From a virus (lineage: Duplodnaviria; Caudoviricetes): DNA of 63,149 bases. The stretch covers positions 1 to 63,149 of IMG/VR virus record IMGVR_UViG_3300031965_000025. One strand, given 5' to 3'. Shown in pieces: positions 1,218 through 51,131 of this stretch. Made by a program: the position numbers and the translations under genes. The notes beneath the pieces are model-generated. The model was given only the letters and a program-made list of their open reading frames with translations, did not search any database and was not told where the DNA came from. Numbering within the stretch: position 1 is the stretch's first letter; each line of letters begins with the position of its first letter.

Positions 1218-1661
1218 AACGCCGAAGCCAAAGCCGGTACCCTGGCCGTCACCCGAGAAGGAGGCCGCGTGAGCTTCTACGTAAATCACCGAGTCTGGCC
1301 GATGTATGGGCCATTCGACACGTACGAATCTGCACGAGACTTCGTTGTCCGCGCCGAGTTCGAGGGCGCGCAAATCTTGTGCGAAGCCGAGGAGCCCGCG
1401 CCGGCTGACGTCGGGCCCATGAAGTCGTATCGCGAAATGTACGAGGCGCTCTGCGCCGAGGTTCACGAGGTGCACCGCCTGCTCAACGACCGCGAGGAGC
1501 TGCCATTCGGGGCGCCCCTGGTCGAGCGCGTGAGGGCGCTTGTCGGGCAGCACGAGCACCGCTCGGAGGTCGACGATAGGGGCGTTCAGCTCTGCCGGTG
1601 CGGTGCCAAGCGCGTGACGCTCGACGGCGGTGAGACCTACGGCGAGTGGGTGGCGCCATGA
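1215..1661 (+). CDS. Hypothetical protein
   Basis: ATG directly after the cassette SD. Confidence 0.75.
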   Translation: MNAEAKAGTLAVTREGGRVSFYVNHRVWPMYGPFDTYESARDFVVRAEFEGAQILCEAEEPAPADVGPMKSYREMYEALCAEVHEVHRLLNDREELPFGAPLVERVRALVGQHEHRSEVDDRGVQLCRCGAKRVTLDGGETYGEWVAP

Positions 1662-1942
1662 CCGGCCGCGACAAACGAACAGCTTCACTGAACATGAGCC
1701 AGCGCGAGCGACTTCGGCAATCGACCGAGCGCATCGACGCGCTCGACGACCCGGCCTTCGAAACCCTGTCGCAACTCGTCGAGTGGATCGCGCTGAATGA
1801 CGAGCCGACGCTACGAAGCCGAGGCGAGATCGCCGAACAAGTCACGGTGCAGCTCGTGTGCGACGTGTTCAACCTCGACCCCCAACACGTTGCAGCGATC
1901 ATCGTCGATCGGCGAACGAACCCTGACGCGTGGGGGCTGTGA
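1658..1942 (+). CDS. Hypothetical protein
   Basis: ATGA coupling with the upstream gene. Confidence 0.65.
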   Translation: MTGRDKRTASLNMSQRERLRQSTERIDALDDPAFETLSQLVEWIALNDEPTLRSRGEIAEQVTVQLVCDVFNLDPQHVAAIIVDRRTNPDAWGL

Positions 1943-2349
1943 TGGCAGCCGAAGACTACCTGCCTTCGCTCGACCCGTACGACGAGCCCGATTGGCCCGA
2001 AGACGACGGCGACCCCGGACCTGAGCACGACCCTGGCCCGTGGTTCGATCTGCGGCACGACAACGGCGACGTAACGATCGTGAACCCGAAGACGGGAGGG
2101 CGCAAAGCGTTCAGGGTGCATACGCAACTGTTCGGCGACGAGCCCAAGCGCGTGTTGGCGCTTCTTCGCCATGGCTACGATCGAGAAGAGCGCCGGGCGT
2201 GGGAGGGCTTCGCGTTCGTCAGCACGCGCGGCGTGCACCTGTGGCTCAAGCACCTTGACACCCCGTTCGAGAAGTACGCGAAGCTCCTCGAACACCACGA
2301 GGCGGGCGAAGCGAGCGGGCTCGTTTACTACTGGCGCAAGGACCGCTGA
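1942..2349 (+). CDS. Hypothetical protein
   Basis: TGATG coupling at both ends. Confidence 0.7.
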   Translation: MAAEDYLPSLDPYDEPDWPEDDGDPGPEHDPGPWFDLRHDNGDVTIVNPKTGGRKAFRVHTQLFGDEPKRVLALLRHGYDREERRAWEGFAFVSTRGVHLWLKHLDTPFEKYAKLLEHHEAGEASGLVYYWRKDR

Positions 2350-8532: not shown

Positions 8533-8859
8533 ACTGAACACCGCGCCTATTTCGATAGGCCCTGAGAACGATTCTACGGGCCGCTCGCGCTTGTTGGAAC
8601 CAACATAAGCGCTCGTATTGGGGCATGGCGATCTTCGCCTCTCCGCCGGTCGCCATCGGAGCCCCGCATTCTGTGCGGGTTTGCGAGATCGGGTATAGGC
8701 GCTCCCCCGCATTCGACTTTGGGCGACCTCGGAAAGTGGCGTGGTTACTGGCGCGGCGCCCTGTCAAATCCGAGGTACTGCGTTTGCGTGGCTTTCTATG
8801 CGGGGCTCAGGTTGCTCGGCCAACTATTTTTTCCACTGAACACGTGTGCACCACTGAAC
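8533..8859. repeat. ~330-bp non-coding inverted repeat, copy A
   Basis: Reverse complement of 42886-43212, about 12 mismatches by manual alignment. Confidence 0.95.
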
Positions 8860-44348: not shown

Positions 44349-44642
44349 AGCAACGCATTCAAGATCCGCAACCGCATCGCCGCCGCGTGCGCCGTTTCCG
44401 AGGAGCCCGCAGCGGGCGAGAGCCGAGAGGCGTGGCAAGCGCGCGTTGACGAGTACAGCCGCAAGCTCGAGGAGCAGGCCGCGCGCGTGCGCGAAGCTCA
44501 ACGCCGCGAGTGGGCTTCGCGCGTCGACGTCATCGCCGAGAGCCAGACCCGCCGCGCAACGCGCCCGGAAAAGGATCTGAGCCCCGCGGTTGTCGAGGCC
44601 CGACAGCTCGCCGATCAATTTCCCATTCTCTTCGAGGGCTGA
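44346..44642 (+). CDS. Hypothetical protein
   Basis: ATG follows cassette E6. Confidence 0.7.
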   Translation: MSNAFKIRNRIAAACAVSEEPAAGESREAWQARVDEYSRKLEEQAARVREAQRREWASRVDVIAESQTRRATRPEKDLSPAVVEARQLADQFPILFEG

Positions 44643-44645
44643 ACC

Positions 44646-44981
44646 ATGGCGACGACAACGGCTGCACTTGCCGAGCACGGCATGATCATGAGGCAAACCA
44701 GAAACCCCACCCGTGGGGTGTTCTACACGACGTGCGCGAAGTCGACGGGCTCGACTCCCGAAGCGCAAGCCCAGCACTACATCAATCAGCTCGGGCGCAA
44801 GAAGCGCAAGCTCACAGGGCGCGAGCAGTGGATCGAGCGCATGCTCCTCGACGGGTGGGTTCCGATGTATCGGTGTCGTCGGTACATCGACAGAGAGGGC
44901 AAGCGGTGCGAGGCGTCGGAGCTGACGGCTGCACCGCCTGGCTATCTCTTCCGCATCGTCAAGAACAAGCCGGGGTATTGA
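44646..44981 (+). CDS. Hypothetical protein
   Basis: Tightly packed ORF in the E6 unit. Confidence 0.7.
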   Translation: MATTTAALAEHGMIMRQTRNPTRGVFYTTCAKSTGSTPEAQAQHYINQLGRKKRKLTGREQWIERMLLDGWVPMYRCRRYIDREGKRCEASELTAAPPGYLFRIVKNKPGY

Positions 44982-44982
44982 A

Positions 44983-45186
44983 ATGGCAACGACAACGATG
45001 AAGGTCGGAAAGGACCTGTATTGCGCGCACGCGTGGGTCGACGAAGACGGGCGACACGTCGAAGTCGAAACATGGCGCGTTCGAACCATTCGGCGGCGGC
45101 CAATTCTTCGATACCACGACGTACATGCAGGGCCGCGGCACGAACCAGCGGACGGACTACAGGCCCCGCCTGCGCCGCTTCGCTGA
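44983..45186 (+). CDS. Hypothetical protein, possibly truncated
   Basis: Tightly packed ORF. Confidence 0.5.
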   Translation: MATTTMKVGKDLYCAHAWVDEDGRHVEVETWRVRTIRRRPILRYHDVHAGPRHEPADGLQAPPAPLR

Positions 45187-45258
45187 ACGGCGCCCCTGGC
45201 TGACGCAGGACGAACGAGACGCGCTGTGCTACTACTGATCCGGGTTCCGACCTCTCAC

Positions 45259-45337
45259 TTGTTGACAACCACAATTGAGAGTGTTACCTTCTGAGCGTGA
45301 GGCCCGATGACCGGGCCCGAAAGGAGAGCACCCCATG
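45259..45337 (+). promoter_or_regulatory. Cassette E7
   Basis: ~70 bp identical to E1. Confidence 0.9.
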
Positions 45338-45529
45338 AAAGACCGCTACGCACTGACGATCGCCGACGAGACCTCCAACAAGCGCACGTGCGACGGGCGC
45401 CGCGTCACGACGCTGTACTACTCGGAGCGTCGCGCTGCCGAGAATGCTTGGAATGCCTACGGCAACCGCCCTTGGGCCCAGCTTGTCGATCGCTACTTCG
45501 ACTTCACCATTCGTTTTCGCAACGTCTGA
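45335..45529 (+). CDS. Hypothetical protein
   Basis: ATG follows cassette E7. Confidence 0.7.
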   Translation: MKDRYALTIADETSNKRTCDGRRVTTLYYSERRAAENAWNAYGNRPWAQLVDRYFDFTIRFRNV

Positions 45530-45714
45530 TGTCTTGGTTCTGCCCCGATTGCGACGCGGCGCACCCCACCCCGAGCGATACGGCTCGACGCTGCGAAGCT
45601 TGTGAGGTGCGACAGGAACTTGACGCGGCCCGATGCGAGATCGCGGATCTAAGGCGCGAGATCGCGGAGTTGCGCGCGCGGCTAGCGAAATTCGACGCAG
45701 GGCTAGACGACTAG
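45529..45714 (+). CDS. Small Zn-finger/coiled-coil protein
   Basis: TGATG coupling; CPDC..CEAC. Confidence 0.65.
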   Translation: MSWFCPDCDAAHPTPSDTARRCEACEVRQELDAARCEIADLRREIAELRARLAKFDAGLDD

Positions 45715-47576
45715 CCCGCCTCGACTTCCTCGAAGACGGGCTCGGCGTAACACCGGCAATTGTGAATAACGAAATTATCGGCTATGTAGAGCCCTTCCGC
45801 AGTTTGAAGGTTGAATACATGGCCCGAAAATTCACTCCTTCGCTTCTCGATGACGCGCAACAACTTCACGCCCAGGGCTGCACGCTCAAAGACATCGCGG
45901 CTCGTCTTGGTTGCCATCCCGACAACCTCTCTATCCACCTTCGAGAGCGCGGCATCGACACGACGACAGGCAAGCGCCGCCCCACGCACAATCGCAAGGA
46001 TCTCGACACCGAGGCCATTCTTGCCAGCTACATCAGCGGCGTCAGCGAAAAGGCGATCGCCGAAGAGCATGGCGTAGCTCGCGCGGTGATTCGGCGAAGA
46101 CTCGAGGAAAGTGGCATCGAGATTCGATGCCGTAGCGCGGCGATGATCGAGAGAATGAAGCGACTGACGCCCGAAGATCGCAAGGAGCTTGCTCGCCCCG
46201 CGAATGAGTCTCTCCGGGGCGTCAAACAACCTCGACAACAAAGCCTGAAAAGAGCACGGGCCAGACAGGAGGTCATCGGGGCATGTCGCATCGGCGTGGG
46301 AGAGGAAGAGTTCGCAGAATTCCTGGAAAGCAGCGGCGTGTGTTTCGTGCGACAGGCAGCCGTTGAGGCGTACAACATCGACTTTTTGATTGGTGCCGTC
46401 GCCGTGGAACTGCATCGCTCTCCCGGCTACCCGCACAAGCGGAAGAGCCTGAGAAAACGACTCGAATACCTCGCTGAACGTGGGCTGTCGGCGGTCTATA
46501 TCATGTTCCGAGAACTCGACGCTCTTACCGACTCCTTCGATCAGATTCTCGCCGACCTGAACCTCCCCGATGGGCCGCCAACCATCGGAAGTCAATACAG
46601 GGTGATTCGGTGTCGCACGAAGCGTTTTGCCACCCTCCGTAACAAGCTCGGTCAATTCACCGTCGTACCAACGGCGGTACAGCACTTCTGCGATTCCACA
46701 GCCATTGACCTGTGAGTCGCCCGGAAGGCAGTTGAACGCTTCTCCGGGGTGCCCGTCGTCGGGCGGACTGTTCCAGTCGTACACCCTCCCCTCTCGTTCC
46801 CAATGATCGCCGTGCCCGTCTGTGGGCTCGTACAGGCCACCAGGGGCACCCACAACGCGCTCGTCTTGCATGTTGCGCCAGATGTAGCGCGTGACCCCGG
46901 CTGACTTCTGGCGCTCCCCTGTGAGCTGCCCGTTGAGGCTCGCGAGCTGGTCGCGCGCGATGAAGTCGGCTCGGCGCTCTGAAATGCCCGTGCGATGCCG
47001 TAGCGCCTCGCTCAGCGTCTTGTTGTCGAGGTTCCCGCGGAGGTAGCCGTCTTGAATGATGCGGCTCACGTCATCGAGATACGCGCCGTGAATCGACTTG
47101 ATGCGGCTCACGTTGTCGACCACGAAGTTGTCGAGGGTGCGCTCGAGCCATGGCTCTGACGACTTGGGCAGCTCGAAACGAAGGGCGCGCGCCTGACGCT
47201 CCCACCCCTTCTCGTGCAGAGCGTTGGCTCGTACGGCGACGTCTTGCACGATCGGCGACAGAACGCTGACGGAGTACTTTTCGTCGATCACGATGCGAGC
47301 TGCGGCCAGGCGGCGCAGTGCCTCCTTGGAATCGCCCGCGCCGTCGACGTGCAACGCCATGGCAACGCCGAGGGGGTCTTGCGTCTCGCGGCCAGCCAGG
47401 GCGACCAGTGGCCCAAGCACTCGCGCGATGACGGCGATCTGCAGCCGGAGCTTGCGCCGGTAGTCGCGCGCGATCGAATCGAATCGCGGCGGCCTGATGC
47501 GGCGGGGCGGGGCATCGGAGCGGCTGTCGCCTGGGTCGTCGAACGCTGGCGAGGGCTGGGTGAGCAAGGGTTTCAT
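45711..47576 (-). CDS. Head morphogenesis protein (MuF/SPP1 gp7 family), intein-containing
   Basis: RADFIARDQ...GVTRYIWR...DERV...H..REGRVYDW..PP..GHPGEAFN|intein|CRC. Confidence 0.92.
   Translation of the reverse strand: MKPLLTQPSPAFDDPGDSRSDAPPRRIRPPRFDSIARDYRRKLRLQIAVIARVLGPLVALAGRETQDPLGVAMALHVDGAGDSKEALRRLAAARIVIDEKYSVSVLSPIVQDVAVRANALHEKGWERQARALRFELPKSSEPWLERTLDNFVVDNVSRIKSIHGAYLDDVSRIIQDGYLRGNLDNKTLSEALRHRTGISERRADFIARDQLASLNGQLTGERQKSAGVTRYIWRNMQDERVVGAPGGLYEPTDGHGDHWEREGRVYDWNSPPDDGHPGEAFNCLPGDSQVNGCGIAEVLYRRWYDGELTELVTEGGKTLRATPNHPVLTSDGWRPIGEVQVGENLIEGVGKSVEFSEHDIDRRQPTFSEVFESFSQALPLVRVAGRAMQFHGDGTNQKVDVVRLNGCLSHETHAAAFQEFCELFLSHADATCPDDLLSGPCSFQALLSRLFDAPERLIRGASKLLAIFGRQSLHSLDHRRATASNLDATFLESSPNHRASYAMLFGDRLFADAADVAGKNGLGVEILAIVRGAALACRRVDAALSKVDREVVGMATKTSRDVFERAALGVKLLRVIEKRRSEFSGHVFNLQTAEGLYIADNFVIHNCRCYAEPVFEEVEAG
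45759..46730 (-). mobile_element. Intein (324 aa), no in-frame LAGLIDADG/HNH domain
   Basis: N-terminal CLPGDSQV; block B LRATPNHPVLTSDGW; blocks F/G VFNLQTAEGLYIADNFVIHN followed by +1 Cys. Confidence 0.95.
45819..46715 (+). CDS. Antisense-nested HTH-HTH-PD-(D/E)XK (Vsr/DUF559-like) endonuclease; putative intein homing endonuclease
   Basis: GCTLKDIAARLGCHPDNLSIHLRERGI; GVSEKAIAEEHGVARAVIRRRLEESGI; EEEFAEFLESSGVCFVRQAAVEAYNIDFLIGAVAVELH; GAAGG SD. Confidence 0.82.
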   Translation: MARKFTPSLLDDAQQLHAQGCTLKDIAARLGCHPDNLSIHLRERGIDTTTGKRRPTHNRKDLDTEAILASYISGVSEKAIAEEHGVARAVIRRRLEESGIEIRCRSAAMIERMKRLTPEDRKELARPANESLRGVKQPRQQSLKRARARQEVIGACRIGVGEEEFAEFLESSGVCFVRQAAVEAYNIDFLIGAVAVELHRSPGYPHKRKSLRKRLEYLAERGLSAVYIMFRELDALTDSFDQILADLNLPDGPPTIGSQYRVIRCRTKRFATLRNKLGQFTVVPTAVQHFCDSTAIDL

Positions 47577-49780
47577 CGGATCGCGGCGTTCGCGGCCTTG
47601 AGCGCCTCGGCTTCCTTTCTGTCGTCAGGGCCCGTCGTCGTCGCGTAGGTGGCGTTGAACACGGCCAGCCATTTGCGCTGCGCCTTCTCGGCCATGCCGC
47701 GCAGGGGCTTCCCGCCGATCTCGATGCTCGGCAATTCCTCGATCGAGGCGTAGGGGTCGCCCCGTAATGCGTCGAGCCCGTCTTTCTTTGCTCGTCGCGC
47801 CGTCCGCACGTTGTGGCACGACGCGCACACGGCTTCAACGGATCGTGGCTGGTCGTAGCCTCGGGTATGGTCGTACTGCGAAGCCTTCCCGCCGCAATCG
47901 GCGCACTTGCAGTCCTGGGGCGCCTTCATACGCCCGCTCTCGATCAACGTCTGAATCATGCGGCGCGCGGCGCGGACCTTCTTGGGGTCACCGCTCGCAT
48001 CGACCTTGGCTTGAGGCGGAACAGCGGGCCCCGCGAAGGCTGCGGGTGCTGGCTTTTCGCTCGCGAACGCGACCGCCTCGTCGATGATTTTGCGGGCCTC
48101 GGCCTGTGAGAGCTGAAACGCATTCACCAAAATGATGAGCGCGGCCTCTGGAGGCATGAGGCCATCTGCGACGTTCATCACGAGTTCGGCCATGGCCTGA
48201 ACCTGCGCACCGTTCAGAGCCGACTTCTGCACGTCTGTCGGCGCAGCCTGCTCGCCGCTGGCGGGCTCCACGGGTGTGGCCTTGGGCTCGCCCGTGGTTT
48301 CGACTCCGGGCGCTTCTGGGGCTGCCTGTTCAGCCTGGAGGCCGAGATCGCCCGCCATGGCTTCTGCCTCGGCTGCCGCTGCGCTGTCGGCTGGCGCTAC
48401 ATCGTCGAGCAGTTCGACACGTCGCACCTCTGGCCCGCCGTAGAGCGCCTGCCGGCCCTCTTCTGCGCTGACGATGCCGCGGTCGTACAAGATCGCAATG
48501 CCGTCGATGATCGTCTTTTCGCGCGTTGCCTCGGCAACCGGATCTGGCTTGTCGGTGGACGGGAACGAAATGCTCCACGCGTCGGGCGCGGAGCCGAACG
48601 GCCCTTCTGTCGCGAGCAACAGATACAGCGCCACCCTCTCGAGGTTAGGCAAGAGCAGGTTTTCGCAGAACGCTGATACGCGCGACTCCCAGAGCTTTCG
48701 CCCGCCTGCGTCGTCGGTGCTCAGCCCGCCCGGTGGCGTTCCGAACAGCCGCGACAGAGGCATTTCCGCCGCGCCCGCGAGCGACTGCGCCAGGCGATCG
48801 TAGAGCGCTTCAAGCCCCGTCACCGAGGCGGCCACGCGCGCGAAGTCTTCTTTGTCGGCGTCGATCACCGTCATGCCGGTCATCGACTTACTCAGGTTGA
48901 CGGCGGCCAGTCTGGTTGTGAGCTGGGTCAACCCGTCCGGGGCGTGGGCCATCTCCTTGAGGCCCTTGATCTTCATGATCGCCATTTCGAACTCGTGCAC
49001 GATATGCGCGATCGAGCGGTTCACCGCCTTGAAGTCCATTACCTCGTCGAACACGCGCTGGAGCACGCTCTGGCTCCAGTAGTTGAGCACCTGGCGCCGA
49101 CGCTTCGTAAGCGAGCGCCCGTCGAACCGAAGCATACGGGTGTGGTGGATCTCAGGTACGATGCCCCCGTCGAACTCTTCGATGTCGACTGCGAGCACGC
49201 CGAACTCTTCTGGGTGCACCCAATAGGTCAGGGGCTTGCCGAAGTTCGGGCCCGGCGTCTGGTCGATCTGGTTCGGCTCGAGCGCCCACCGATCGCAATC
49301 GAGGGCCCACTTGACGCGTTTGATCTTCGTCACGTCGACGGGCTCGTTCATCGGCTGCCCGTCGTCGATACCGAGCAAGACGGCACCGCCGCCGTAGAGT
49401 CGGCCCCATGTGGCTGCGCTCTGCATCGCCGACCACAGGTCGAGGCGCTTGAACTCTTCGTCCATGAGCGCCGGCTCGTCGAGCCCGCCGAACTCGGCAC
49501 CGAGCGCAAACGCGCTCTCGACCACCTCGTCGACGATGCGCGCGGCGTACACGTTGAACTCGTACAGAATGTCGAGCTGCTCACGCGCGAGGTCAGGCGG
49601 ACGGGAGAGCGTGTCGTGCATCGACTTGTCGGCGCCCGTTCCGAGCCCGCTGATGAGGTTGATCAGCCCGCCGCCGCGGGAGTCGGAGCGCAGCTCGAAT
49701 GCGCCGGGCTCGACCTCGACAAACTCAGCCGTCACGACATCGCGGCGGAACAGGCTCAAGAAGCTTTCGAAGATGCTCAT
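47573..49780 (-). CDS. Portal protein (DUF1073 type) with C-terminal HNH-like and ChaB-like domains
   Basis: WGRLYGGGAVL, IHHTRMLRFDG, MPLSRLFGTPPGGL; CADC..DH..Y...CASCH; PYASIEELP...AQRKWLAVFNATY. Confidence 0.88.
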   Translation of the reverse strand: MSIFESFLSLFRRDVVTAEFVEVEPGAFELRSDSRGGGLINLISGLGTGADKSMHDTLSRPPDLAREQLDILYEFNVYAARIVDEVVESAFALGAEFGGLDEPALMDEEFKRLDLWSAMQSAATWGRLYGGGAVLLGIDDGQPMNEPVDVTKIKRVKWALDCDRWALEPNQIDQTPGPNFGKPLTYWVHPEEFGVLAVDIEEFDGGIVPEIHHTRMLRFDGRSLTKRRRQVLNYWSQSVLQRVFDEVMDFKAVNRSIAHIVHEFEMAIMKIKGLKEMAHAPDGLTQLTTRLAAVNLSKSMTGMTVIDADKEDFARVAASVTGLEALYDRLAQSLAGAAEMPLSRLFGTPPGGLSTDDAGGRKLWESRVSAFCENLLLPNLERVALYLLLATEGPFGSAPDAWSISFPSTDKPDPVAEATREKTIIDGIAILYDRGIVSAEEGRQALYGGPEVRRVELLDDVAPADSAAAAEAEAMAGDLGLQAEQAAPEAPGVETTGEPKATPVEPASGEQAAPTDVQKSALNGAQVQAMAELVMNVADGLMPPEAALIILVNAFQLSQAEARKIIDEAVAFASEKPAPAAFAGPAVPPQAKVDASGDPKKVRAARRMIQTLIESGRMKAPQDCKCADCGGKASQYDHTRGYDQPRSVEAVCASCHNVRTARRAKKDGLDALRGDPYASIEELPSIEIGGKPLRGMAEKAQRKWLAVFNATYATTTGPDDRKEAEALKAANAAIR

Positions 49781-49781
49781 G

Positions 49782-51131
49782 CTACTCCCACCAGTTCCAC
49801 GCCGAATGCTCGTTGATGTAGATCACGGCCTGGCTGAAGCTGTCTACGATGTCTTTGAACGTCGCATTGGGGAACGCGACGTGCTCCTCGATGAAGTCGT
49901 GCAGCCATGGTGCGCGCTCGGGAAGCAAAACGTTACCCGACTCGAAAGCCGTACTGGAAACCTGCGCTCGCAAATACTTCGAGGTGCGGGGCTCGTACGG
50001 CGTCAGCCCTGGCACCTTGCCTTCTAGCAGGTTTAGCAGACCGTAGCCGTTGGCTGCCTTCTCAACAAGTTTGACGGTGGCGTCAGGGTAGCGCTCCGAG
50101 ACGAATTTGAACCGCTCGAGCAGGTCGGTAAGCTCGCCCTTGAACGCGTGCAGGTCGGCGACGTACAGCTTGGCGCCCTTTCGCGCGAGCACGACGATCG
50201 AGTTGCGCGCGCTCGTAGCCGAGTCAGTCAGGGCCGCGTCGACCGATATGATCCACTGGTCGATGTCGGCGGGTAGCTCCTCGTACCGATTTGCAAACCA
50301 CGGCCGCTTGAAGAGCTGGCCCTCTTTCGCGCTCGGGCGCTGTTGGTACAACCCCGCCCAAACGCGCTCGCCGACAGCCACGCGGATCTTGGCGAGCGCT
50401 GCGGCGTCGTAGCGCTCGGGCACAAGAGCGCTGCCGAGCGCGCGCGAAAGCACGTCGTCGATCTCAGCAACGGCCGGAATGCGAATGTGGTTCCAATCGG
50501 GGTAGTCGGCCTTTTTCTCGATGTAGCCGGTGAGATCGTCTTCGACCCAGCGGGTCATGATCACGACGATCGAGCCGCCAGGCTCAATGCGGGTTTGCGC
50601 GACCGAATCCCACCAGTTGTTGGTCCTCTCGATGTAGCGCGGGCTGTACGCCGTCTCCCAATCTTTGATGGGGTCGTCGACTACGAGGAGGTCGGCGCCC
50701 TTCCCGCTCAGCCCGGCACCTACGCCCGTGCAGAACATCCCGCCGCCCTGCGTCGTGCGGAAGTTCGCGGCGCCCCTGAGATCTTTTCGGAGCTTGTGCT
50801 TGAGCTTGTCGGAGTTCTCGAAGGTGTCGCGCACCTTGAGCCCGAACTCCGCAGACAGGGTCGACCCATACGACGCGGAAACGACGCGCTTTTGCGGAAA
50901 CCAGTCGAGGAACCACGTAGGCAGCCAGACGGAGCCAAGCTCGCTTTTGCCGTGGCGCGGCGGAACGTTGAGGATCACGCGCCCGTTGCCTCCCAAGACC
51001 GCATCTTCGAGGACTTCGGCAATGTGGGTGTGCATCGCCCACGCGTGCCAGGCGCCCTCCGATACGTGCTCAGCGAAGCTCGCGAGGCCAAACCGCCAGC
51101 TCTCGCGAATGACGGCCGGGGCGCCGATCAT
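49782..51131 (-). CDS. terL: Terminase large subunit
   Basis: Walker A PPRHGKS, Walker B VVDDP, MTRW, YQQRP, ISVDAA, KDIVDSFSQA. Confidence 0.95.
   Translation of the reverse strand: MIGAPAVIRESWRFGLASFAEHVSEGAWHAWAMHTHIAEVLEDAVLGGNGRVILNVPPRHGKSELGSVWLPTWFLDWFPQKRVVSASYGSTLSAEFGLKVRDTFENSDKLKHKLRKDLRGAANFRTTQGGGMFCTGVGAGLSGKGADLLVVDDPIKDWETAYSPRYIERTNNWWDSVAQTRIEPGGSIVVIMTRWVEDDLTGYIEKKADYPDWNHIRIPAVAEIDDVLSRALGSALVPERYDAAALAKIRVAVGERVWAGLYQQRPSAKEGQLFKRPWFANRYEELPADIDQWIISVDAALTDSATSARNSIVVLARKGAKLYVADLHAFKGELTDLLERFKFVSERYPDATVKLVEKAANGYGLLNLLEGKVPGLTPYEPRTSKYLRAQVSSTAFESGNVLLPERAPWLHDFIEEHVAFPNATFKDIVDSFSQAVIYINEHSAWNWWE

What the first reader, a model, noticed from the sequence alone, without database searches (positions are those of the whole stretch)
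45759..46730. Intein whose putative homing endonuclease is encoded on the antisense strand as a fully nested gene
Seen: the MuF/gp7 gene (minus strand) is interrupted at GEAFN|CRC by a 324-aa intein with intact splicing motifs (C1, TPNH, terminal HN, +1 Cys). The ~220 aa between the splicing regions has no LAGLIDADG or HNH motif and reads like an antisense translation. The opposite strand carries a 298-aa ORF (45819-46715, GAAGG SD) that starts 60 nt inside one intein boundary and stops 15 nt inside the other, in exact codon register with the intein. It encodes two HTH units, a basic linker and a Vsr/DUF559-like nuclease signature (EEEFAEFL...FVRQ...YNIDF...VELH...H). Established: intein endonucleases are normally in-frame parts of the intein polypeptide, and Vsr-like PD-(D/E)XK enzymes act as homing endonucleases in phages. 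Inference: this is a two-stranded selfish element, with the sense frame kept open for splicing and the antisense frame supplying mobility. Both splicing regions are double-coded as well. I know of no standard description of this architecture but cannot check the literature here.
Basis: partly seen in the sequence, partly recalled or inferred. Interest (0 to 1): 0.95.

Follow-up and report, generated by a model that had tools for sequence, protein, structure and literature searches.

The report
MuF intein with antisense homing endonuclease
A self-splicing protein insert (intein) in this phage's head-assembly gene carries a complete DNA-cutting enzyme gene on the opposite strand, codon against codon; it is real and kept by selection, but a 2025 preprint already describes this layout.

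Summary
The minus-strand MuF gene (45711-47576) carries a 324-aa class-1 intein (45759-46730). A 298-aa plus-strand ORF (45819-46715) lies inside it in exact codon register.

The antisense ORF is a real gene. It folds with mean pLDDT 94 into two HTH units plus a Vsr-like nuclease (Vsr Z 9.8, I-Bth0305I Z 9.1). It has 2230 relative clusters and a free-standing homologue beside an intein-less MuF in an Acinetobacter phage.

The ORF is open in 108 of 108 contig-complete related viral loci and in 10 of 10 inspected phage loci (GC 42-68%). Substitutions in the interior fall mainly on its wobble position (103 against 32). In both splicing regions the sense frame is the more conserved. Sense residues 121-280 get low model confidence.

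Its start codon is the antisense of the block-F His codon (ATG 74, GTG 15 of 89 loci).

Close Jerseyvirus relatives show precise presence or absence of the intein.

Cleavage, splicing and expression remain untested, and the family's catalytic His is not conserved in this subfamily.

Gosselin et al. (bioRxiv 2025) already report full inteins with antisense VSR-like endonucleases. This scan has also met the layout before, in at least 52 other genomes. I rate it a new member of a known kind.

The parts
45711..47576 (-). MuF / SPP1 gp7-like head morphogenesis gene (621 aa precursor), interrupted by the intein
   Evidence: ORF and translation. Pfam Phage_Mu_F at 1.4e-4 over residues 175-283, below its cut-off. 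PHROG phrog_15127 'head protein' at 3.8e-91 and phrog_324 'head morphogenesis' at 1.6e-47. Portal (47573..49780) and large terminase (49782..51131) lie upstream on the same strand.
45759..46730 (-). Class-1 intein, 324 aa (C1 ... HN, followed by Cys+1)
   Evidence: Read from the sequence. C1, T40, H43 and N324 are invariant in an alignment of 71 sequences (the window's intein plus 70 homologues). The model matches mini-intein Hint domains, e.g. the Mtu RecA intein splicing domain at Z 13.2, rmsd 1.6, 107 aligned.
46371..46730 (-). N-terminal splicing (Hint) region, intein residues 1-120. It includes blocks A and B and the conserved FHGD...VDVV strand region. It lies opposite HEG residues 185-298.
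   Evidence: In the AF2 model, ten-residue block means of pLDDT are 82-98 except 63 for residues 71-80. The sense frame is the more conserved opposite HEG 241-298.
45891..46370 (-). Sense-frame interior, intein residues 121-280: an open frame with low model confidence
   Evidence: Block means of pLDDT are 34-69 despite a 71-sequence alignment. No Pfam hit. Only Hint chains were matched. Amino-acid identity in this frame is lower than in the antisense frame in all 66 pairs listed.
45759..45890 (-). C-terminal splicing region, intein residues 281-324 (blocks F and G). It lies opposite HEG residues 1-24 and the HEG ribosome-binding site.
   Evidence: pLDDT 78-98. The sense frame is the more conserved here. 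In close pairs, changes synonymous only in the sense frame outnumber those synonymous only in the antisense frame 10 to 1.
45714..45758 (-). C-extein, 15 aa (CRCYAEPVFEEVEAG), carrying the conserved MuF C-R-C motif
   Evidence: Translation. The same insertion point before C-R-C/S is seen in Aaphi23 and in Jerseyvirus phages.
45819..46715 (+). Nested antisense gene (298 aa plus stop): putative homing endonuclease, bipartite HTH plus Vsr-like nuclease
   Evidence: Translation. 2230 relative clusters at E<=1e-3. AF2 mean pLDDT 94.1, pTM 0.74. Fold matches. Selection on this frame in the interior.
45806..45810 (+). GAAGG Shine-Dalgarno-like site 8 nt before the ATG. It is the antisense of the block-F Asn-Leu codons.
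   Evidence: Sequence. At the homologous Leu codon, 79 of 89 related loci use CTC or CTT, which read GAG or AAG on the other strand.
45819..46121 (+). Two helix-turn-helix units (HEG residues 1-47 and 57-101)
   Evidence: Pfam HTH hits. Helices H7-43 and H64-97 in the model. Tc3 transposase bipartite DNA-binding domain at Z 6.8; resolvase and IstA HTH at Z 6.0-6.3.
46284..46574 (+). Vsr-like nuclease core (HEG residues 156-252), with E162, D188 and E197
   Evidence: VIA-align: 1cw0_A Vsr Z 9.8 (rmsd 2.9, 109 aligned), 3r3p_A I-Bth0305I Z 9.1 (93 of 97), 3hrl Z 8.8. D188 and E197 are invariant and E162 is present in 86 of 87 relatives.
46398..46409 (+). Doubly constrained 12 nt: GTC GCC GTG GAA reads V-A-V-E (HEG 194-197) on the plus strand and F-H-G-D (intein 108-111) on the minus strand
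   Evidence: Both motifs are present in all 11 nested sequences that were gathered by protein similarity only. That requires all 12 bases to be fixed. The free-standing Acinetobacter copy reads VALE / FQRH.
46593..46709 (+). C-terminal beta-hairpin of the HEG model (residues 259-297), opposite intein blocks A-B
   Evidence: Strands E259-274 and E280-297 with pLDDT 93-98. The sense frame is nevertheless the more conserved here.

Best explanation
This is a composite selfish element in a phage head-morphogenesis (MuF) gene. Two things are encoded on opposite strands of the same DNA.

On the sense strand lies a class-1 intein. It is translated as part of the MuF precursor and presumably splices itself out, restoring the conserved ...N|CRC... 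motif.

On the opposite strand, wholly inside the intein, lies a separate gene. It encodes a two-HTH DNA-binding module joined to a Vsr-like PD-(D/E)xK-type nuclease of the kind seen in the intron homing endonuclease I-Bth0305I.

Shown here:
- both frames are open;
- the antisense frame is under purifying selection across the interior;
- the sense frame is the more conserved in the two Hint regions;
- the sense interior (residues 121-280) is only kept free of stops and gets low model confidence;
- the antisense start codon and ribosome-binding site are built from the block-F His and Asn-Leu codons;
- the antisense stop lies within the first intein codons, so the gene travels with the intein.

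Inferred: the nuclease cuts intein-less MuF alleles near the insertion point during co-infection, and repair copies in the whole two-strand unit (homing). Splicing keeps the head protein functional.

Also inferred: the element arose when a free-standing endonuclease gene of this family lodged in reverse orientation at the endonuclease-insertion point of a mini-intein.
For: Gene reality:
- P0001 has 2230 clusters of relatives at E<=1e-3 and 1032 at E<=1e-10.
- Invariant residues in 87 relatives are M1, R88, Y185, D188 and E197.
- AF2 gives mean pLDDT 94.1, with 265 of 298 residues at 90 or above.
- Fold matches: Vsr 1cw0 Z 9.8, I-Bth0305I 3r3p Z 9.1, 3hrl Z 8.8, Tc3 bipartite HTH Z 6.8. Foldseek's top hit is 3r3p.
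- Of 87 relatives, 20 hit Pfam MTES_1575 and 11 hit DUF559.
- A free-standing, annotated homologue lies tail to tail with an intein-less MuF in Acinetobacter phage IME285. The opposite frame there is full of stops.

Conservation of the layout:
- tblastn finds P0001 relatives in 120 phage records.
- Of the 11 I opened, 10 are nested antisense in MuF with both frames open at GC 42-68%, and 1 is free-standing.
- A DNA motif scan of viral contigs gave 119 loci.
- With the window that makes 120. All 120 antisense stop-to-stop ORFs hit the family HMM.
- All 108 that are not cut by a contig end cover the profile from HTH2 to the nuclease end.

Selection:
- Across 90 unique nested sequences, the antisense wobble position is the most variable and the antisense protein the more conserved over HEG 61-190 and 201-240. 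Across 191-200 (the VAVE/FHGD motif, fixed in part by the search pattern) the two frames tie. The reverse holds over HEG 1-20 and 241-298.
- In 5 independent close pairs, single-base codon changes in the interior (HEG 21-185) are synonymous only for the antisense frame 103 times and only for the sense frame 32 times. The counts are 25:9 for HEG 201-240, 1:10 opposite Hint C and 19:31 opposite Hint N.

Translation signals:
- The block-F His codon is CAT in 74 and CAC in 15 of 89 loci, which reads ATG or GTG on the other strand.
- 88 of those 89 starts lie in the open frame.

Intein:
- The Hint fold matches mini-inteins at Z 13.2.
- The interior has low pLDDT.

Mobility:
- 58 of 364 Jerseyvirus/Kagunavirus-like records hold the intein.
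- 25 of the 40 rows shown (rows spread evenly down the ranking) hold both exteins joined.
- One empty allele differs by exactly 272 aa at AH..|CRS.
Against: - No expression, splicing or cleavage data exist for this element. No RNA run was listed for the window.
- No promoter-like site was found for the antisense gene (0 found).
- The His and the second Asp of the EDxHD motif of I-Bth0305I are not conserved in the window's two-HTH subfamily. Only 26 of 87 relatives have any His 2-12 residues after E197, and 2 of 87 have GGxWH. Catalytic competence is therefore not assured.
- P0001 itself does not reach Pfam's nuclease families at E<=0.01. The direct sequence match to 3r3p is weak (E 2.1).
- Within the window, GC3 does not tell the two frames apart (0.65 against 0.66).
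- The 119 viral loci were ascertained with a pattern that demands intact VAVE/FHGD and TPNH codons. Decayed copies would be missed.
- One locus (L058) has adjacent in-frame stops in both frames.
- The five close pairs are few.
Confidence: 0.85

Rival explanations
1. The antisense protein is real and selected, but it is no longer (or never was) a homing nuclease. It might be a DNA-binding regulator, a nickase with another role, or an inactive relic kept for binding. On this view the intein is now inherited mostly vertically.
For: - The general-base His and second Asp of the EDxHD motif are not conserved in this subfamily.
- The strongest sequence signals are HTH domains, and PHROG hits name 'transcriptional regulator'.
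- The preprint notes that some VSR-like cases look vertically inherited (section 15).
- The window's gene lies downstream of plus-strand ORFs, which suggests expression apart from the late genes.
Against: - E162 is present in 86 of 87 relatives, and D188 and E197 in all 87. They align with acidic residues of I-Bth0305I.
- The nuclease core is the most conserved part of the protein.
- The gene is confined to the intein in every nested case.
- The intein shows presence/absence polymorphism among phages with 85-94% identical exteins.
Confidence: 0.12
2. The plus-strand ORF is a shadow ORF. Long antisense frames in codon register are common in G+C-rich DNA, because their stops need the rare sense codons TTA, CTA and TCA.
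For: - The window is 57-67% GC around the feature.
- From extein codon usage, the chance of an open frame in the window alone is only about 0.018. It is 0.15-1.0 in most loci of GC 0.65 or more.
- GC3 does not separate the frames in the window.
Against: - The frame is also open in phages of 40-49% GC, where the chance is 1.7e-7 to 4.7e-4.
- The wobble pattern and amino-acid conservation favour this frame in the interior.
- pLDDT is 94 with a known nuclease fold.
- A free-standing homologue exists.
- Start codons are conserved at a fixed place.
Confidence: 0.02
3. The sense-frame interior is itself a functional in-frame domain (a new endonuclease or DNA-recognition region), and the antisense frame is secondary.
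For: - The sense frame is open in 107 of 108 complete loci.
- The sense motif FHGD...VDVV is conserved even at positions that are silent for the antisense protein.
Against: - The conserved sense motifs lie in residues 85-120, which the model places in the Hint fold.
- Residues 121-280 have block-mean pLDDT of 34-69 (a mean of 49), no Pfam hit and no structural match.
- They are less conserved than the antisense frame in all 66 pairs.
Confidence: 0.01

Closest known systems
Full inteins with an anti-sense VSR-like homing endonuclease in actinobacteriophages (Gosselin, Arsenault and Gogarten, bioRxiv 10.1101/2025.01.02.630785; outline, sections 8 and 15 and passages read)
   Same: - A contiguous intein with an open sense frame and a separate endonuclease ORF on the antisense strand inside it.
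- Their endonuclease model matches Vsr 1CW0 (their Z 10.6, mine 9.8) and 3R3P.
- Their sense interior also lacks a recognisable structure.
- Minor capsid proteins are among their host genes.
- They propose origin from a free-standing endonuclease gene.
   Different: - Their survey covers PhagesDB actinophages only. The window is an uncultured soil viral genome, and the relatives found here include phages of Aggregatibacter, Salmonella, Escherichia, Klebsiella, Edwardsiella and Vibrio.
[quoted passage not shown] Here about 114 codons of the nuclease model lie opposite the folded Hint N region and 24 opposite Hint C.
- I found no codon-level selection test in the passages searched.
- Their supplementary tables, which list the phages, could not be opened.
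Fractured genes: split inteins with a free-standing Vsr-like or GIY-YIG endonuclease gene between the halves (Dassa et al. 2009, PMC2677866; passages read)
   Same: A Vsr-like endonuclease gene of free-standing type sits at the endonuclease-insertion point of an intein (between blocks N4 and C2) in phage-like DNA.
   Different: There, all three coding regions are on the same strand. [quoted passage not shown] Here the endonuclease gene is on the opposite strand and the intein stays in one piece.
I-Bth0305I, EDxHD family intron homing endonuclease of Bacillus phage 0305phi8-36 (Taylor et al. 2011, PMC3239194; passages read; PDB 3r3p)
   Same: - A Vsr-like catalytic fold (Z 9.1; 93 of 97 residues aligned).
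- An N-terminal modular DNA-binding region.
- A phage mobile-element context.
- Acidic residues equivalent to E162, D188 and E197.
   Different: - I-Bth0305I is encoded in a group I intron, not an intein.
- It has NUMOD-type rather than HTH binding modules.
- The His and second Asp of EDxHD are not conserved in the window's subfamily.
Canonical large inteins with an in-frame LAGLIDADG or HNH endonuclease domain (e.g. PI-PfuI 1dq3, TliVMA 7qss, both among the Hint matches)
   Same: The same Hint fold, the same position for the mobility function, and the same presumed homing cycle.
   Different: There the endonuclease is part of the intein polypeptide. Here it is a separate protein read from the other strand.

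Membership tests
Class-1 intein (Hint domain) | Cys/Ser at position 1, block B T-x-x-H, C-terminal (H)N, and a Cys/Ser/Thr +1 nucleophile | tested here: met
   C1, T40/H43 and H323-N324|C are present in the window. C1, T40, H43 and N324 are invariant in an alignment of 71 sequences (the window's intein plus 70 homologues).
Class-1 intein (Hint domain) | Hint fold formed by the N- and C-terminal regions | tested here: met
   The AF2 model is confident for residues 1-120 and 281-324. All 50 listed structural matches are Hint, intein or hedgehog domains; the best is Z 13.2, rmsd 1.6, 107 aligned.
Class-1 intein (Hint domain) | In-frame insertion with precise presence/absence in a conserved host motif | tested here: met
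   Shown for Jerseyvirus relatives, not for the window's own lineage. The occupied allele has 619 aa and the empty allele 347 aa. They are collinear on both sides of AH..|CRS.
Class-1 intein (Hint domain) | Protein splicing activity | not testable with these tools
   This needs expression of the MuF precursor.
Non-canonical intein with anti-sense VSR-like endonuclease (Gosselin et al. 2025) | One-piece intein with an endonuclease ORF on the antisense strand within the intein | tested here: met
   The same holds in 10 of 10 inspected nested phage loci and in 107 of 108 complete viral loci; L058 is broken.
Non-canonical intein with anti-sense VSR-like endonuclease (Gosselin et al. 2025) | Endonuclease model matches Vsr (1CW0) and 3R3P | tested here: met
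   1cw0_A Z 9.8 and 3r3p_A Z 9.1. The preprint reports Z 10.6 to 1CW0 and an HHpred hit to 3R3P.
Non-canonical intein with anti-sense VSR-like endonuclease (Gosselin et al. 2025) | Host is an actinobacteriophage | not tested
   The window is an uncultured viral genome with terminal repeats, and its host is unknown. Gordonia phage relatives exist at 28-38% identity.
EDxHD / Vsr-like homing endonucleases (I-Bth0305I) | Vsr-like alpha/beta nuclease fold | tested here: met
   Z 9.8, 9.4, 9.1 and 8.8 to 1cw0, 1vsr, 3r3p and 3hrl. The next tied rows (mitoribosomal proteins, Z 8.1-8.2, and FASTKD4, Z 6.7) are not unrelated folds: one listed paper's title calls FASTKD4 'Vsr-like'. Clearly unrelated rows are at Z 7.1 or less.
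EDxHD / Vsr-like homing endonucleases (I-Bth0305I) | Conserved E, D, H, D catalytic set | tested here: not met
   E162 (86 of 87 relatives), D188 (87 of 87) and E197 (87 of 87) are conserved. No His or second Asp column is conserved after E197: 26 of 87 have any His at +2 to +12. The window itself has H199 and H206. One-HTH relatives keep GGxWH.
EDxHD / Vsr-like homing endonucleases (I-Bth0305I) | Cleavage of the element-free allele near the insertion site but not of the occupied allele | not testable with these tools
   A biochemical assay is required.
Pfam DUF559 / MTES_1575 (restriction-endonuclease-like) | Profile match | tested here: inconclusive
   P0001 has no hit at E<=0.01. Of 87 relatives, 20 hit MTES_1575 (best 9.2e-9) and 11 hit DUF559 (best 5.6e-5).
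Fractured gene / split intein with free-standing endonuclease (Dassa et al. 2009) | Intein broken into two genes, with the endonuclease gene on the same strand between them | tested here: not met
   The sense frame is continuous through the intein and the endonuclease gene is on the opposite strand.

The most novel reading that the evidence does not exclude
The pair is more than an endonuclease gene parked in a dispensable linker. It may be an anciently co-adapted two-strand unit in which folded parts of both proteins are written on the same bases.

- The nuclease model from Y185 to its C-terminal hairpin (about 114 codons) lies opposite the folded Hint N region.
- A catalytic-site strand (VAVE) and a Hint strand (FHGD) fix all 12 shared bases.
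- The endonuclease's start codon and ribosome-binding site are made from block-F His and Asn-Leu codons.

If so, splicing and mobility functions constrain each other's sequence. The unit has spread as one piece through phages of Proteobacteria and Actinobacteria. Free-standing copies beside intein-less MuF genes (Acinetobacter phages) may mark the ancestral state.

The two-HTH subfamily, which has lost the family's catalytic His, may cut by a changed mechanism or only nick.
Probability: 0.4. Interest if true: 0.55.

Novelty: new member of a known kind. Interest (0 to 1): 0.3.

Why it matters
It shows that an intein can obtain its mobility from a separate gene read backwards through its own coding sequence. 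This bears on how inteins and homing endonucleases came together, the 'splicing first' view in which a free-standing endonuclease invades a mini-intein.

In practice, gene callers and curators usually annotate only one strand. Of the 11 public phage records I opened, only 1 of the 10 nested ones (Salmonella phage PK1) annotates the antisense gene. These endonucleases therefore go largely unrecorded, and such inteins can be mistaken for decaying ones.

The family is also a natural, deeply sampled case of long antisense dual coding, useful for studying how two folded proteins share codons.

The layout itself is already in print as a preprint, so this window adds an example and some extra evidence rather than a new kind of element.

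Tried and rejected
- Shadow-ORF explanation: rejected, see the rival explanations.
- In-frame endonuclease in the sense interior: rejected. No Pfam hit, low pLDDT and only Hint matches.
- Split or fractured intein: rejected, because the frame is continuous.
- The search for related loci with P0001 alone on viral contigs found no relative.
I then used a DNA motif scan.
- The search for homologous proteins with P0001 gave only 5 hits. The exhaustive HMMER search gave 2230.
- The promoter and terminator scan of 45200-47000 found none. This says nothing either way in a G+C-rich phage of unknown host.
- The look-up of sequencing runs listed no RNA holder. It listed two DNA runs, one of which may be the source sample.
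- GC3 within the window does not separate the frames.
- I first thought the C-terminal tail of the free-standing Acinetobacter protein was clearly homologous to the nested tails. Pairwise identity there is only 8-19%, so I make no claim.
- Literature searches for a prior description: 'intein' + 'homing endonuclease' + 'antisense strand' (nothing relevant), 'intein' + 'MuF' (noise), 'intein' + 'opposite strand' + 'endonuclease' + 'phage' (nothing relevant), 'I-Bth0305I', 'fractured genes', and 'intein' + 'actinophage' + 'minor capsid protein'. The last one found the 2025 preprint.
- Gorbalenya 1998 and Gogarten 2002 are known to me only as cited in that preprint.
Which phages and host genes carry the VSR-like antisense form in that preprint could therefore not be checked.

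Full report
**What is there.** The window is a complete uncultured viral record of 63,149 bp with direct terminal repeats. On the minus strand lie a large terminase (49782..51131), a portal (47573..49780) and a 621-aa MuF/SPP1 gp7-like head morphogenesis gene (45711..47576).

The MuF reading frame contains a 324-aa insert, CLPGDSQV...NFVIHN, at 45759..46730. It follows GEAFN and precedes CRCYAEPVFEEVEAG. The plus strand carries an ORF from the ATG at 45819 to the stop at 46713-46715 (298 aa, P0001). GAAGG lies 8 nt before the ATG.

The two frames are exact reverse complements, codon for codon. HEG residue j lies opposite intein residue 305-j.

**The sense strand encodes a genuine intein.** I aligned 71 sequences, the window's intein plus 70 homologues drawn from the 160 MuF proteins that match the intein region at E<=1e-5. 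In that alignment C1, T40, H43, P44, G50, F108, D111, N307 and N324 are invariant.

An AlphaFold2 model built on the alignment is confident for residues 1-120 and 281-324. It is poor for residues 121-280, where ten-residue block means of pLDDT are 34-69. All 50 listed structural matches are Hint, intein or hedgehog domains. The best is the Mtu RecA intein splicing domain at Z 13.2, rmsd 1.6, 107 aligned. Pfam finds nothing in the interior.

**The antisense ORF is a real protein-coding gene.** An exhaustive HMMER search finds 2230 clusters of relatives at E<=1e-3, 1032 at E<=1e-10 and 102 at E<=1e-30. Most are about 300 aa long.

In 87 aligned relatives M1, R88, Y185, D188 and E197 are invariant. 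The model has mean pLDDT 94.1 and pTM 0.74. It shows two three-helix HTH units, a helical linker, an alpha/beta nuclease core and a C-terminal beta-hairpin.

- Foldseek's best match is the catalytic domain of the homing endonuclease I-Bth0305I (3r3p; TM 0.63-0.65 normalised by target length).
- VIA-align gives Vsr 1cw0_A Z 9.8 (rmsd 2.9, 109 aligned), 1vsr Z 9.4, 3r3p_A Z 9.1 (93 of 97 aligned) and the DUF559-like 3hrl Z 8.8.
- The Tc3 transposase bipartite DNA-binding domain matches residues 1-99 at Z 6.8.
- Of the 87 relatives, 20 hit Pfam MTES_1575 and 11 hit DUF559. P0001 itself does not.

**The layout recurs widely.** tblastn of P0001 against 50,697 phage records finds 120 records at 26-38% identity. 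They are phages of Salmonella (62), Pseudomonas (15), Gordonia (11), Klebsiella (8), Vibrio (4), Acinetobacter (3) and others.

I opened 11 of them. In 10 the match is antisense inside a MuF or head protein gene, and both frames are open. These are Aaphi23, Edwardsiella MSW-3, Klebsiella KpTDp1, two Vibrio phages, Gordonia Angelicage and Malisha, Salmonella PK1 and LP31, and Escherichia Snoke. Their GC ranges from 42 to 68%. Only PK1 annotates the antisense ORF. Snoke annotates the intein.

In the eleventh, Acinetobacter phage IME285, the homologue is a free-standing annotated gene. It lies tail to tail with a 258-aa intein-less MuF that ends ...PMCKCRAKL... The frame opposite the endonuclease there is full of stops.

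With the window that makes 120:

- All 120 antisense stop-to-stop ORFs match an HMM of the family.
- Of these, 108 are not cut by a contig end. All 108 cover the profile from the second HTH to the nuclease end.
- Among those 108, 37 have two HTH units like the window and 71 have one.
- The sense frame runs through the whole intein in 107 of the 108. L058 has adjacent in-frame stops in both frames.

This sample was ascertained on intact VAVE/FHGD and TPNH codons, so decayed copies are under-represented.

**More than chance.** An antisense stop in this register needs a sense TTA, CTA or TCA codon. I calculated the chance of an open frame from the frequency of these codons in each locus's own N-extein.

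- The chance is 0.018 for the window.
- It is below 0.05 in 26 of 52 loci.
- It is 1.7e-7 to 4.7e-4 in the six loci of GC 0.49 or less.
- It is not informative above about 65% GC.

**Which frame is selected, and where.** Across 90 unique nested sequences, column entropies show a mosaic.

- Over HEG residues 61-190 and 201-240, the antisense protein is the more conserved and its wobble position is the most variable base. Across 191-200, the VAVE/FHGD motif that the search pattern partly fixed, the two frames tie.
- Over HEG 1-20 (opposite Hint C) and 241-298 (opposite Hint blocks A-B), the sense protein is the more conserved and the sense wobble is the most variable.

In the 12 phage and window sequences, interior identity is higher in the antisense frame in all 66 pairs. 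Three closely related Jerseyvirus/Kagunavirus phages differ at 6-14% of antisense wobble positions but at only 0-3% of the other two positions.

In five phylogenetically independent close pairs, I counted single-base codon changes that are synonymous for only one frame:

| Region | Synonymous for antisense only | Synonymous for sense only |
|---|---|---|
| HEG 21-185 | 103 | 32 |
| HEG 201-240 | 25 | 9 |
| Opposite Hint C | 1 | 10 |
| Opposite Hint N | 19 | 31 |

One 12-nt stretch (46398-46409) reads VAVE on one strand and FHGD on the other. It is fixed in all 11 nested sequences that were gathered by protein similarity alone. Both frames therefore constrain it.

**Translation signals built from intein codons.** The antisense start codon is the reverse complement of the block-F His codon (H304, nearly invariant).

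- In the 89 of 120 loci where my block-F pattern matched, that codon is CAT in 74 and CAC in 15. These read ATG or GTG on the other strand.
- In 88 of the 89 the start lies in the open frame.
- The Leu codon four codons downstream of that His in the sense frame is CTC in 65 and CTT in 14. This gives GAG or AAG within a GGAG- or AAGG-like site about 8 nt before the start.
- In the 52 loci where my block-A pattern also fixed the intein's first codon, the antisense stop ends just beyond the intein's first codon in 3 and 3-111 nt inside the intein in the other 49, most often opposite intein residue 2.

Of the 31 loci without a pattern match, 10 are cut by contig ends. The rest have a divergent block F, most with the His two codons earlier.

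**Mobility.** A megablast of a Jerseyvirus MuF gene finds 364 records, of which 58 hold at least 80% of it. Among the 40 rows shown (spread evenly down the ranking), 25 hold both exteins in two pieces spanning about 1,030-1,045 bp. These are intein-less alleles with 85-94% identical exteins.

One empty allele (347 aa) and one occupied allele (619 aa) are collinear on both sides of the site. They read AHFG|CRS against AHPN|C...HN|CRS, a difference of exactly 272 aa. This is the expected picture for a homing or recently lost element. It is shown for relatives, not for the window's own lineage.

**What remains open.**
- Nothing here shows transcription, translation, splicing or cleavage.
- No promoter-like site was found.
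- In the window the nested gene lies 105 nt downstream of a run of small plus-strand ORFs that converge on MuF. Read-through transcription is therefore possible.
- The EDxHD motif of I-Bth0305I is only partly kept. E162, D188 and E197 are conserved. The general-base His and the second Asp are not conserved in the two-HTH subfamily: 26 of 87 relatives have any His nearby and 2 of 87 have GGxWH. One-HTH relatives keep GGxWH.
- The whole intein has GC3 of 0.60-0.65, against 0.82 in the neighbouring genes. This fits foreign origin or dual-coding constraint.

**Comparison with what is known.** Dassa et al. 2009 (PMC2677866, passages) described Vsr-like and GIY-YIG endonuclease genes between the halves of split inteins, all on the same strand. 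Taylor et al. 2011 (PMC3239194, passages) characterised I-Bth0305I as a member of that endonuclease family.

Gosselin, Arsenault and Gogarten (bioRxiv 10.1101/2025.01.02.630785; outline, sections 8 and 15 and passages) report the following.

- Among 784 actinophage inteins, 63 have non-canonical endonucleases. These include LAGLIDADG or VSR-like endonucleases encoded on the antisense strand of full inteins.
- The VSR-like model matches 1CW0 at Z 10.6 and 3R3P by HHpred.
- All the minor capsid inteins they found are non-canonical.
- They cite Gorbalenya 1998 and Gogarten et al. 2002 for earlier antisense LAGLIDADG cases. I have not seen those papers.

The architecture is therefore already described. 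This scan has also met it before in at least 52 other genomes, with the same verdict.

This window and analysis add four things:
- the spread well beyond actinophages;
- a codon-level demonstration of mosaic selection;
- the finding that folded parts of both proteins are dual-coded;
- start signals made from block-F codons.

**Verdict.** It is a new member of a known kind, of moderate to low interest.

Noticed in passing
window 47573..49780 (-), residues 598-657 of the portal ORF: The 735-aa portal ORF has a C-terminal stretch with an HNH-like pattern (CKCADCGG...DH...CASCHN). It hits a PHROG 'endonuclease' family (phrog_2340, 2.2e-6). The portal may be fused to an HNH nuclease domain.
   Followed up: no
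window 45759..46730 compared with 46731..51131: The whole intein has GC3 of 0.60-0.65 in either frame. The MuF N-extein, portal and terminase have GC3 of 0.82. Overall GC dips to 57-61% across the intein.
   Followed up: partly
window 44646..45714 (+): Three small plus-strand ORFs (111, 67 and 135 aa) converge on the 3' end of MuF and end 105 nt before the nested gene's ATG. The last has two CxxC pairs and a coiled-coil-like tail. None hits a PHROG family at E<=1e-3. AT skew is positive from about 44350 to 46450, as for plus-strand coding.
   Followed up: partly
L002 (Acinetobacter phage vB_AbaM_IME285) 413..1348 (+) and 1342..2118 (-): A free-standing homologue of the nested endonuclease overlaps by 7 nt, tail to tail, an intein-less MuF gene. 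That gene's C-K-C motif lies 17 codons before its stop. This may be an ancestral or escaped state.
   Followed up: partly
L058 (viral contig), about 8740-8750 in the orientation used: This is the only one of 108 complete loci with a break. Adjacent in-frame stops occur in both the intein frame (5 codons before the block-F FSGH) and the endonuclease frame (after MTRKPSSL). It could be a decaying copy, a split intein in the making, or a sequencing error.
   Followed up: partly
L012-L130 and phage loci: There are two forms of the nested endonuclease. The two-HTH form (37 of 108 complete loci, like the window) mostly lacks the GGxWH motif. The one-HTH form (71 of 108; also Jerseyvirus and Gordonia Malisha) mostly keeps VAVE-x-FGGxWH.
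   Followed up: partly
L011 and L132 (Salmonella Jerseyvirus phages): The two extein residues just before the insertion site differ between the occupied allele (AHPN|C) and the empty allele (AHFG|C). This is what a co-conversion tract or a target-site change would look like.
   Followed up: no
P0161, P0186, P0187, P0190 and others: Some intein-bearing homologues of about 1000 aa carry both portal (PF04860) and MuF (PF04233) Pfam domains. These are portal-MuF fusion proteins with the same intein.
   Followed up: no
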